From assembly GCF_045037415.1 (NCBI RefSeq), contig NZ_CP173438.1: a stretch of DNA of 64,000 nt; one strand, 5' to 3'. This DNA is from Escherichia coli (GTDB taxonomy: Bacteria > Pseudomonadota > Gammaproteobacteria > Enterobacterales > Enterobacteriaceae). Shown here piece after piece: positions 38,601-39,360 of the stretch. The position numbers and the translations under genes are program-made. Position 1 is the first letter of the stretch. Each line of letters opens with the position of its first letter. Under the pieces are notes generated by a model. It ran no database searches. It worked only from the letters and a program-made list of their open reading frames with translations, and was not told where the DNA came from.

Positions 38601-39026
38601 TTATTTCAGGCGATTACCCGCCTCATCAACCACTTTCTCGCCATCTTCCTTGGTGAACGCGCCTTTTTGCGCATCTGGCAGAATTTCCAGCACGACTTCT
38701 GAAGGGCGGCACAGGCGAGTTCCCTGTGGCGTCACCACAATCGGGCGATTAATCAGAATCGGGTGCTGAAGCATAAAGTCGATTAACTGATCGTGAGTAA
38801 ATTTATCTTCTGCAAGGCCCAGTTCCTCATACGGCTCGACGTTTTTACGCAGCAACGCGCGTACGGTAATCCCCATATCGGCAATGAGTTTTACCAGCTC
38901 ATCGCGCGTCGGTGGTGTTTCCAGATAATAGATAATGGTCGGTTCTGTACCGCTGTTGCGGATCATCTCCAGCGCATTACGCGACGTACCGCAGGCCGGG
39001 TTGTGATAAATGGTAATGTTGCTCAT
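38601..39026 (-). CDS. arsC: arsenate reductase (glutaredoxin-coupled)
   Basis: 141 aa ORF; sequence matches remembered ArsC including catalytic Cys in HNPACGTSR. Confidence 0.9.
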   Translation of the reverse strand: MSNITIYHNPACGTSRNALEMIRNSGTEPTIIYYLETPPTRDELVKLIADMGITVRALLRKNVEPYEELGLAEDKFTHDQLIDFMLQHPILINRPIVVTPQGTRLCRPSEVVLEILPDAQKGAFTKEDGEKVVDEAGNRLK

Positions 39027-39075
39027 ATCAGTATCTCATTACAATGTGAAAGAGAGGTGTAGCGCCAGCGCCACC
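39027..39075 (-). pseudogene. possible 3-prime remnant of arsB (last about 15 codons) abutting arsC
   Basis: minus-strand reading just upstream of arsC start gives a hydrophobic tail (FVTLVALALHLSFTL-stop) with no upstream ORF; arsR and arsB bodies absent. Confidence 0.3.
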
Positions 39076-39202
39076 AGCGTTACAAACCAAAGCGGACAAG
39101 TCAAAAACACATATGGTTTAACGAATATGTAAGTGTAGAGAAAGGTGTAGGTGTGAATTAAGCGTTGGGCATTCATTTGAAAGGAGGTCTGAATCAGGAC
39201 GT

Positions 39203-39231
39203 AAAAAAACCGACTTCGCGTCGGTTTTTTT
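39203..39231. terminator. bidirectional hairpin flanked by A7 and T7 in the arsC-dinQ interval
   Basis: AAAAAAACCGACTTCGCGTCGGTTTTTTT; transcript terminated is unknown. Confidence 0.5.
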
Positions 39232-39360
39232 ACTGTTCAGCCCTGAGTTGGTGGCTCTGGCTGGAGTGAGATAGCCCACATCTAACAATGAGACATGCTC
39301 CGTGACAGGCAATGGATGAGTAAGCGGATGCATTCTCACTCCATCGCATGGAGAAAACGG

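What the first reader, a model, noticed from the sequence alone, without database searches (positions are those of the whole stretch)
38601..39360. ars operon reduced to arsC: arsR and arsB missing, with a possible arsB tail remnant
arsC is intact, but only about 470 bp separate its start from gor, where K-12 carries arsR-arsB plus the dinQ/agr region. Immediately upstream of arsC the same strand reads like the last codons of a membrane protein with no ORF body, consistent with a deletion leaving the arsB 3-prime end. arsC would then lack its cognate pump and repressor/promoter, raising the question of how, or whether, it is expressed.
Basis: partly seen in the sequence, partly recalled or inferred. 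Interest (0 to 1): 0.45.

Follow-up and report, generated by a model that had tools for sequence, protein, structure and literature searches.

The report
Known B2-lineage arsRB deletion, arsC kept
This E. coli (phylogroup B2/ST131-type) carries the already published lineage-wide deletion that removed the arsenic repressor and pump genes and left only the arsenate reductase gene arsC, so the finding is real but ordinary.

Summary
arsC (38601-39026, minus strand) is intact. Only 471 bp separate it from gor, against 2,585 bp in K-12.

Alignment to K-12 MG1655 places a clean 1,684-bp deletion at window 39088|39087. It removed the arsR -10 element, all of arsR, and all of arsB except its last 49 bp (39087-39039). 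The same junction is present in 1,111 of 5,426 complete E. coli genomes. About 1,106 genomes have no arsRB match at all.

This is already published. Sütterlin et al. 2018 and Amin et al. 2022 report that phylogroup B2/ST131 lacks arsR and arsB, keeps arsC, and has low arsenite MICs.

New detail from this work:
- The arsR -35 hexamer and operator-like region survive. With arsB-tail sequence they form a 17-bp-spaced hybrid promoter candidate. This is inference only.
- arsC shows a substitution pattern consistent with purifying selection on B2 branches (9 synonymous, 5 non-synonymous).
In fact the dinQ ORF and one agr sRNA body remain. A second, repeat-mediated deletion removed the dinQ SOS promoter, the LexA box and the agr promoter. 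That deletion is in 829 genomes.

The parts
38601..39026 (-). arsC, an intact glutaredoxin-dependent arsenate reductase of 141 aa
   Evidence: ORF listed. NCBIfam NF007456 300.9 bits and TIGR00014 136.1 bits. 94.3% amino-acid identity to K-12 ArsC. Annotated as arsC in identical RefSeq genomes. Cys12, Arg60, Arg94 and Arg107 read directly from the translation.
39039..39087 (-). arsB 3' remnant: the last 16 codons plus the stop codon, 49 bp, with no ORF body
   Evidence: Aligns to K-12 L002 6177-6225, the end of arsB, with 43/49 identity. In the sampled arsB-carrying genomes the match to the window ends here.
39087..39088 (.). Deletion junction. K-12 L002 4493-6176 (1,684 bp) is absent: the arsR -10 element, arsR, and arsB except its last 49 bp
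   Evidence: Global alignment. The junction is identical in five B2 genomes. 1,111 of 5,426 genomes span it at 80% coverage or more.
39088..39130 (-). Remnant of the arsR promoter and operator region, including the -35 hexamer TTGACT at 39104..39099
   Evidence: Aligns to K-12 L002 about 4450-4492, directly upstream of arsR. Calling these bases the -35 and operator rests on their position and my own knowledge of the ars promoter. PMC3918153 confirms only that the ArsR binding site lies upstream of the promoter.
39076..39084 (-). Putative new -10 element (TG-T-AACGCT) supplied by arsB-tail sequence, 17 bp downstream of the retained -35. This is a hypothetical hybrid promoter for arsC
   Evidence: My heuristic weight-matrix scan scores it 7.6, against 9.4 for the native K-12 arsR promoter. 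It ties for the top score in the scanned stretch. The other 7.6 candidate ends at 39016, inside arsC, so it could not drive the whole gene. The tool's stricter consensus scan found no promoter-like site. No expression data.
39201..39285 (-). Single agr (AgrB-like) antisense sRNA body with its terminator hairpin. Its K-12-type promoter is absent
   Evidence: Rfam RF02891 AgrB, 91.6 bits, model positions 1-84 of 84. K-12 agrA and agrB promoters score 10.3 and 11.2, but the best candidate upstream here scores 5.9.
39254..39286 (.). Merged 33-bp repeat. The dinQ 5'-UTR repeat is fused to the agr repeat, marking a second, 200-bp repeat-mediated deletion relative to other B2 strains
   Evidence: K-12 self-BLAST shows repeats at L002 3863-3896, 4063-4095 and 4293-4326. 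B2 strains L006 and L007 keep the intervening 200 bp, while the window, L005 and L008 lack it. 829 of 5,426 genomes carry the merged form.
39361..39444 (+). dinQ ORF (27 aa, the L15Q allele). Its LexA-controlled promoter and about the first 80 nt of its mRNA are missing
   Evidence: RefSeq annotation of an identical genome. The K-12 LexA box CTGGATAATCATACAG at L002 3983-3998 lies inside the absent segment, and no CTG-N10-CAG motif occurs in window 38991-39520. The promoter position follows PMC3567139.
39498..40850 (-). gor (glutathione reductase), the upstream flank of the locus
   Evidence: ORF. Annotated gorA. 95.7% DNA identity to K-12.

Best explanation
The window comes from a phylogroup B2 (ST131-type) E. 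coli chromosome. The ancestral gor-dinQ-agrAB-arsRBC locus has here been cut down by deletions.

Shown: one 1,684-bp deletion, with a blunt or 1-nt-microhomology junction at 39088|39087, removed the arsR -10 element, arsR, and arsB except its last 49 bp. Intact arsC was left fused to the arsR -35/operator region. The event is old and inherited. It has the same junction in diverse B2 genomes and is present in about 20% of complete E. coli genomes.

Published consequence: these strains have no ArsB pump and no ArsR repressor, and they have low arsenite MICs.

Inferred, about 40% likely: arsC is still transcribed at a low constitutive level. The start would be a hybrid promoter made of the retained arsR -35 (TTGACT), a 17-bp spacer, and an extended -10-like TGTAACGCT taken from the arsB tail. 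With no ArsR in the cell, this promoter would be unrepressed.

Inferred, about 50% likely: the enzyme is kept by selection because reducing arsenate remains useful without ArsB. The As(OH)3 product could leave the cell passively through the aquaglyceroporin GlpF.
For: Identity of the sequence: 100% identity over 1,401 bp to many O25b:H4/ST131-type chromosomes, all annotated arsC, dinQ, gorA.

Deletion mapping: BLAST and global alignment against K-12. The junction is identical in five B2 genomes of different arsC alleles.

Distribution: 1,111 of 5,426 genomes span the junction. 1,106 genomes have no megablast match to K-12 arsR-arsB. No ArsB, ArsR, ArsA or ArsD homologue occurs elsewhere in the 64-kb window.

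Polarity of the event: a 49-bp arsB coding remnant is present. Sütterlin et al. 2018 also concluded loss in B2 rather than gain elsewhere (PMC5923176).

Phenotype: isolates lacking arsRB had arsenite MICs below 128 mg/L (PMC5923176). Three ST131 isolates lacking arsR and arsB had the lowest As(III) MICs (PMC9731454).

arsC function and constraint: strong family-model scores. dN/dS is 0.14 against K-12. B2 branches carry 9 synonymous and 5 non-synonymous changes (binomial P=0.0015). Within B2 the counts are 5 and 3 (P=0.022). arsC is annotated as arsC in all 12 junction-bearing genomes of the spread sample.

Hybrid promoter: the -35 is retained at exactly 17 bp from an A2/T6 hexamer preceded by TG. 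It ties for the best score upstream of arsC, and the rival candidate ends inside the ORF. The -35 is invariant in the five B2 sequences.

GlpF and AqpS precedent: PMC6138428.
Against: There is no expression evidence of any kind. The tool's consensus promoter scan found no promoter-like site in 38500-39600. The native K-12 arsR promoter would fail the same thresholds, so this is weak evidence either way.

My weight matrices were written from memory and are only heuristic. The proposed -10 matches just 2 of 6 consensus positions in the window (AACGCT). It is polymorphic in B2 (AACTCT in L005-L007).

The selection test rests on 14 substitutions in only five B2 sequences and ignores transition/transversion bias. 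The stem branch may also predate the deletion.

The window's own lineage carries two private non-synonymous changes in ArsC (T18A, L101Q) against one synonymous change. That could indicate relaxed constraint.

From memory, not checked here: arsC expressed without arsB has been reported to cause arsenate hypersensitivity in S. aureus pI258 constructs. That would argue against a benefit.
Confidence: 0.85

Rival explanations
1. arsC is a silent, decaying relic. The deletion removed the functional promoter, the gene is not expressed, and it looks intact only because it is short and too little time has passed.
For: The native -10 element is gone and the consensus scan finds no promoter. The cognate pump and repressor are absent. 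The ST131-type allele has two private amino-acid changes, T18A and L101Q. Neighbouring features are clearly decaying: the dinQ promoter is lost, yhiS is truncated, and the arsB tail is 12% diverged against 5.6% for arsC.
Against: Synonymous changes outnumber non-synonymous ones on B2 branches, 9 to 5, against a neutral expectation of about 1 to 3.2 (P=0.0015). Within B2 the counts are 5 to 3 (P=0.022). No frameshift or stop codon appears in any sampled junction-bearing genome, although within-B2 synonymous divergence reaches about 0.04. Sütterlin et al. found arsC in all isolates.
Confidence: 0.3
2. arsC is expressed, but by read-through from upstream transcription on the same strand (gor, or the agr sRNA) rather than from a hybrid promoter at the junction.
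For: gor, agr and arsC are all on the minus strand with only 471 bp between gor and arsC. Terminators are rarely 100% efficient.
Against: Two hairpin terminators lie in the path. One is the gor/dinQ terminator just after the gor stop codon. The other is the agr terminator, a G+C-rich stem flanked by A7 and T7 at about 39204-39233. In this sublineage agr has also lost its strong promoter, with a best candidate score of 5.9 against 10-11 in K-12.
Confidence: 0.15
3. arsR and arsB were never present here. The B2 arrangement is ancestral, and arsRB was inserted in the other phylogroups.
For: B2 is often placed as an early-branching E. coli lineage (my own knowledge).
Against: The window holds 49 bp of arsB coding sequence in frame with the arsB stop codon and the conserved arsB-arsC spacer. 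It also holds the arsR -35/operator region. An insertion model cannot explain partial genes on both sides of the junction. Sütterlin et al. reached the same conclusion from congruent rMLST and arsRBC trees.
Confidence: 0.01

Closest known systems
Chromosomal arsRBC operon of E. coli K-12 (b3501-b3503)
   Same: Same chromosomal site between gor/dinQ and yhiS/slp. arsC is orthologous (94% amino-acid identity). The arsB-arsC spacer, the arsB stop codon and the arsR -35/operator region are homologous.
   Different: arsR, the arsR -10 element and 1,241 of the 1,290 bp of arsB are deleted. There is no ArsR-controlled, arsenite-inducible operon and no pump.
Published 'B2 phylogroup lacks arsR/arsB, retains arsC' genotype (Sütterlin et al. 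2018, PMC5923176; Amin et al. 2022, PMC9731454)
   Same: This is the same genotype. Between gor and slp only arsC remains. It is found in ST131, ST73 and other B2 lineages and is associated with low arsenite MIC.
   Different: Nothing differs biologically. In the passages of those papers that I retrieved I found no base-level junction, arsB remnant, retained -35/operator or linked dinQ/agr deletion. Those details are added here.
ArsC plus aquaglyceroporin pathway of Sinorhizobium meliloti (aqpS replaces arsB)
   Same: An arsenate reductase works without an ArsB or Acr3 pump, and internally generated As(III) leaves through a channel (PMC6138428). This is a functional analogy for how arsC alone could still be useful, given that E. 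coli GlpF conducts As(III).
   Different: In S. meliloti the channel gene lies in the ars operon and the pathway has been shown experimentally. Here GlpF is unlinked and normally acts as an uptake route. No experiment supports the pathway in B2 E. coli.
dinQ/agrAB type I toxin-antitoxin locus of K-12 (Weel-Sneve et al. 2013, PMC3567139)
   Same: The dinQ ORF and an AgrB-like sRNA body with its terminator are present at the same site.
   Different: There is one agr copy rather than two. The LexA operator, the dinQ promoter, about the first 80 nt of dinQ mRNA (including the +44 processing site) and the agr promoter are all deleted in this sublineage.

Membership tests
Glutaredoxin-dependent arsenate reductase ArsC (NCBIfam NF007456 / TIGR00014) | Full-length match to the family model above its curated cut-off | tested here: met
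   NF007456 300.9 bits (cut-off 242), covering residues 1-141 of 141. TIGR00014 136.1 bits (cut-off 106.05).
Glutaredoxin-dependent arsenate reductase ArsC (NCBIfam NF007456 / TIGR00014) | Catalytic Cys12 and the Arg60/Arg94/Arg107 triad (R773 ArsC numbering; recalled from my own knowledge) | tested here: met
   All four residues can be read at those positions in the translation (HNPAC12GTS, LLR60KN, INR94P, LCR107P).
Glutaredoxin-dependent arsenate reductase ArsC (NCBIfam NF007456 / TIGR00014) | Arsenate reductase activity and expression in this strain | not testable with these tools
   No transcript, protein or enzyme data were available. Literature searches for arsC expression in UPEC/B2 found nothing relevant.
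arsRBC arsenic-resistance operon | arsR repressor gene present | tested here: not met
   K-12 L002 4529-4882 lies wholly inside the deleted segment. There is no ArsR tblastn hit anywhere in the window.
arsRBC arsenic-resistance operon | arsB (or acr3) arsenite efflux gene present | tested here: not met
   Only the last 49 bp of arsB remain. There is no ArsB tblastn hit in the window. 1,106 genomes have no megablast match to arsRB at all. acr3 was not searched.
arsRBC arsenic-resistance operon | ArsR-regulated promoter upstream (operator, -35 and -10) | tested here: inconclusive
   The operator-like region and the -35 hexamer TTGACT are retained. The native -10 (GACACT in K-12) is deleted and replaced by arsB-tail sequence AACGCT at the same 17-bp spacing.
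dinQ/agrB type I toxin-antitoxin system | DinQ toxin ORF | tested here: met
   A 27-aa ORF at 39361-39444, annotated dinQ in an identical RefSeq genome. It has one substitution (L15Q) relative to the allele in K-12 and other B2 strains.
dinQ/agrB type I toxin-antitoxin system | AgrB antisense sRNA | tested here: met
   Rfam RF02891, 91.6 bits against a gathering score of 40, full model length. This covers the RNA body only.
dinQ/agrB type I toxin-antitoxin system | LexA-repressed (SOS) dinQ promoter and constitutive agr promoter | tested here: not met
   The LexA box at K-12 L002 3983-3998 and both promoters fall in the segment absent from the window. No CTG-N10-CAG motif occurs in window 38991-39520. 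The best agr promoter candidate scores 5.9, against 10-11 in K-12.

The most novel reading that the evidence does not exclude
The deletion did not simply orphan arsC. It placed the gene under a fortuitous hybrid promoter, made of the arsR -35 and an extended -10 from the arsB tail at an exact 17-bp spacing. With ArsR gone, that promoter would be constitutive. arsC would then have been kept by purifying selection across B2 for an ArsB-independent role. One candidate role is arsenate detoxification, with As(III) leaving through GlpF. Another is a substrate other than arsenate. Linked to this, most B2 genomes (829 complete genomes, including ST131) have uncoupled the DinQ membrane toxin from the SOS response by deleting its LexA-controlled promoter, although databases still annotate it as 'damage-inducible'.
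Probability: 0.25. Interest if true: 0.45.

Novelty: already known. Interest (0 to 1): 0.2.

Why it matters
The genotype explains why the clinically dominant B2/ExPEC lineages (ST131, ST73 and others) are arsenite-sensitive. It is a stable marker of phylogroup B2, and this is already in the literature.

The base-level map made here is a small addition. It shows that a possible promoter survives for arsC, which makes 'why is arsC universally retained?' directly testable. Sütterlin et al. themselves raised that question.

The linked loss of the dinQ SOS promoter matters mainly for annotation and for anyone extrapolating K-12 DinQ/AgrB biology to ExPEC strains.

Tried and rejected
- The consensus promoter/terminator scan of 38500-39600 found no promoter-like site. 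It found one weak terminator-like hairpin inside the arsB tail (39074..39059). I do not treat that hairpin as functional, because the homologous K-12 sequence lies inside the co-transcribed arsB-arsC junction.
- Rfam hits other than AgrB (Spy779816, naRNA4, and a plus-strand AgrB hit) are all below their gathering scores. They fall on the terminator hairpin or on REP-like sequence, so I rejected them.
- The 45-aa chimeric ORF at 39039-39176 matches no NCBIfam family. It has no Shine-Dalgarno sequence and starts upstream of the proposed transcript start, so I treat it as spurious.
- Literature searches for arsC expression or phenotype in UPEC, CFT073, UTI89, Nissle or ST131 found nothing usable. 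The first of these was badly designed, because arsC was not a required term.
- A search for a published base-level description of the K-12 ars promoter hexamers found only the general statement that the ArsR binding site lies upstream of the promoter. The -35 and -10 assignments therefore rest on sequence position and my own recollection.
- I first thought the junction needed 2-3 nt of filler DNA. On re-reading, it is a simple join after K-12 '...CCGCTTCG' and before 'GTTTGTG...', with one later C-to-T change.
- I considered whether the TTGCCT -35-like hexamer upstream of agr is a compensatory mutation. I rejected this because B2 strains that keep the real agr promoter carry it too.

Full report
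**1. What is in the window**

- On the minus strand the gene order is rlmJ, gor (39498-40850), arsC (38601-39026), a yhiS remnant, slp, then dctR. chuS follows on the plus strand.
- A 1,401-bp query across the finding is 100% identical to many complete chromosomes of O25b:H4/ST131-type strains. All of them are annotated arsC, dinQ, gorA at this site. The window is therefore an E. coli phylogroup B2 chromosome.
- arsC is intact. It scores 300.9 bits on NCBIfam NF007456 and 136.1 bits on TIGR00014, both above cut-off. It is 94.3% identical to K-12 ArsC. Cys12, Arg60, Arg94 and Arg107 are all present.
- The arsC-gor gap is 471 bp, against 2,585 bp in K-12 MG1655.

**2. The deletion and the arsB remnant**

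BLAST and a global alignment against K-12 (locus L002 = NC_000913.3 3,644,000-3,656,000) give three collinear blocks:
- Window 40000..39254 matches K-12 3150-3896 (gor 3' end, dinQ).
- Window 39287..39090 matches K-12 4293-4490 (agrB and the region up to the arsR -35).
- Window 39087..38000 matches K-12 6177-7276 (the last 49 bp of arsB, arsC, and downstream sequence).

The ars deletion is K-12 L002 4493-6176, which is 1,684 bp. The junction lies at window 39088|39087. It removes the arsR -10 element, arsR, and arsB apart from 16 codons plus the stop codon.

The remnant reads WFVTLVALALHLSFTL*, against K-12 LFVTLAALALRLSFTL*, with 43 of 49 nt identical. It is followed by the unchanged 12-nt arsB-arsC spacer. 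The junction is a plain join with at most 1 nt of microhomology.

The alternative that arsRB was never adjacent is excluded by partial arsB sequence on one side of the junction and partial arsR-promoter sequence on the other.

**3. Distribution**

- 1,111 of 5,426 complete E. coli genomes span the junction at 80% coverage or more. In the sampled genomes that carry arsB, the match stops at query 486/487 = window 39086/39087.
- 1,106 genomes have no megablast match to K-12 arsR-arsB anywhere, so the deletion lineage generally has no second close copy.
- No ArsB, ArsR, ArsA or ArsD homologue lies elsewhere in the window.
- Five B2 genomes with different arsC alleles share the identical junction: the window, Seattle 1946, AHB7, EC21GDE043 and NCTC11151. 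This points to one old, inherited event.

**4. It is already known**

- Sütterlin et al. [quoted passage not shown] They report that isolates lacking arsRB had sodium arsenite MICs below 128 mg/L. [quoted passage not shown] They also say it is unclear why arsC is universally retained.
- Amin et al. 2022 (PMC9731454) found the same genotype in three ST131 isolates, which had the lowest As(III) MICs.
- The finding is therefore a correct re-discovery.

**5. How arsC might be expressed (inference)**

- The deletion left the arsR -35 hexamer TTGACT (39104..39099) and the operator-like sequence upstream of it.
- The native arrangement in K-12 is TTGACT, 17 nt, GACACT. In the window it is TTGACT, 17 nt, AACGCT. 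The new hexamer comes from the arsB tail and is preceded by TG at the extended -10 position.
- In a heuristic weight-matrix scan this hybrid scores 7.6 in the window and 8.2 in the AACTCT variant of other B2 strains. The native K-12 promoter scores 9.4.
- The hybrid ties for the top score. The other 7.6 candidate ends at 39016, inside arsC, so it could not drive the whole gene.
- The tool's stricter consensus scan reports no promoter. The native promoter would fail that scan as well.
- Read-through from gor or agr would have to cross two hairpin terminators.
- I put about 40% on the hybrid promoter giving low, constitutive, ArsR-independent transcription. There are no expression data.

**6. 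Is arsC under constraint?**

- Nei-Gojobori dN/dS is 0.14 against K-12.
- By parsimony, with K-12 and two arsRB-carrying strains (L003, L004) as outgroups, B2 branches carry 9 synonymous and 5 non-synonymous changes. With 101 synonymous and 322 non-synonymous sites, the binomial P is 0.0015.
- Within B2 only, the counts are 5 synonymous and 3 non-synonymous (P=0.022).
- The numbers are small, but they lean towards purifying selection after the deletion.
- The arsB tail is more diverged than arsC, 12% against 5.6%.
- The ST131-type allele has two private replacements, T18A and L101Q.
- A plausible benefit is arsenate reduction with passive As(OH)3 exit through GlpF. This resembles S. meliloti, where the channel AqpS replaces ArsB (PMC6138428). 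It is untested in E. coli B2.

**7. The neighbouring dinQ/agr region**

In fact the dinQ ORF (39361-39444) and a full-length AgrB-like RNA body (39285..39201, 91.6 bits) are present.
- However, K-12 3897-4292 is absent. That segment holds the LexA box CTGGATAATCATACAG (L002 3983-3998), the dinQ promoter, agrA and the agrB promoter.
- B2 strains EC21GDE043 and NCTC11151 keep the dinQ promoter, the LexA box and one agr copy with its promoter.
- The window, Seattle 1946 and AHB7 lack a further 200 bp that lies exactly between two 33-bp direct repeats. One repeat is the agr-complementary repeat in the dinQ 5' UTR, and the other is the agr repeat.
- 829 genomes carry the merged form, and 809 have no match to the dinQ-promoter segment.
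- In this sublineage dinQ therefore lacks its SOS promoter and about the first 80 nt of its mRNA, including the +44 processing site. agr lacks its strong promoter, with a best candidate of 5.9 against 10-11 in K-12.
- I found no report of this. One paper calls the dinQ locus 'conserved' in a B2 strain (PMC7232551).

**8. Verdict**

- It is already published, so interest is low.
- The residual open question is why arsC is kept and how it is expressed. The mapped promoter remnant makes that question easier to test.

Noticed in passing
window 39254-39286 (merged repeat); context 39201-39444: A second, repeat-mediated 200-bp deletion removed the dinQ LexA box and promoter, about the first 80 nt of dinQ mRNA, and the agr promoter. 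The dinQ ORF and the agr RNA body were left behind. It is polymorphic within B2: EC21GDE043, NCTC11151 and ATCC 11775 keep the segment. 829 of 5,426 genomes have the merged form. RefSeq still annotates 'damage-inducible type I toxin DinQ' there.
   Followed up: yes
window 39361-39444 (+) and 38601-39026 (-): The ST131-type alleles carry private amino-acid changes. DinQ has L15Q, a polar residue in the single transmembrane helix. ArsC has T18A and L101Q. The other four B2 sequences have the K-12-like residues at these positions. This could reflect relaxed constraint in this sublineage.
   Followed up: partly
window 37605-37984 (-), junction near 37595-37607: yhiS is reduced to about its first 379 bp. 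Window 37607-38700 matches K-12 L002 7670-6564, and window 36165-37595 matches K-12 11215-9782. The rest of yhiS is absent, as is the site of the K-12 IS5 insertion. RefSeq calls the remnant a frameshifted, incomplete hypothetical protein.
   Followed up: partly
window 38390-38449 (+); L003 2050-3479, L004 1962-3367: A 20-aa remnant (65% identity) of an ArsR/SmtB-family regulator lies downstream of arsC. In strains NY1601 and CB7286 that regulator is intact and paired with a 'permease' gene between arsC and yhiS. This 1.6-kb module is absent from both the window and K-12. CB7286 also carries arsRDABC at this site.
   Followed up: no
window 39039-39176 (-): The deletion created a 45-aa chimeric ORF (MNAQRLIHTYTFLYTYIFVKPYVFLTCPLWFVTLVALALHLSFTL). 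It starts in the agr-arsR spacer and runs in frame into the arsB tail and the arsB stop codon. It matches no family, has no Shine-Dalgarno sequence and is not annotated. It is probably meaningless.
   Followed up: partly
window 38440-38560: REP-like palindromic repeats lie between arsC and the yhiS remnant. They give sub-threshold Rfam naRNA4 hits and account for the extra matching places per genome in the genome-wide search.
   Followed up: no
window 35081-36109 (+): chuS, part of the haem-utilisation chu locus, lies directly beyond dctR where K-12 has yhiD and hdeBA. Sütterlin et al. describe haem-transport genes about 5 kb downstream of the ars locus in B2, D and F isolates, which fits this.
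   Followed up: no
K-12 L002 3897-4292 versus other genomes: Many non-B2 genomes match only positions 1-265 of the K-12 dinQ-promoter/agrA/agrB-promoter segment. They therefore appear to have a single agr copy. The agrA/agrB tandem duplication seen in K-12 is not universal outside B2.
   Followed up: no
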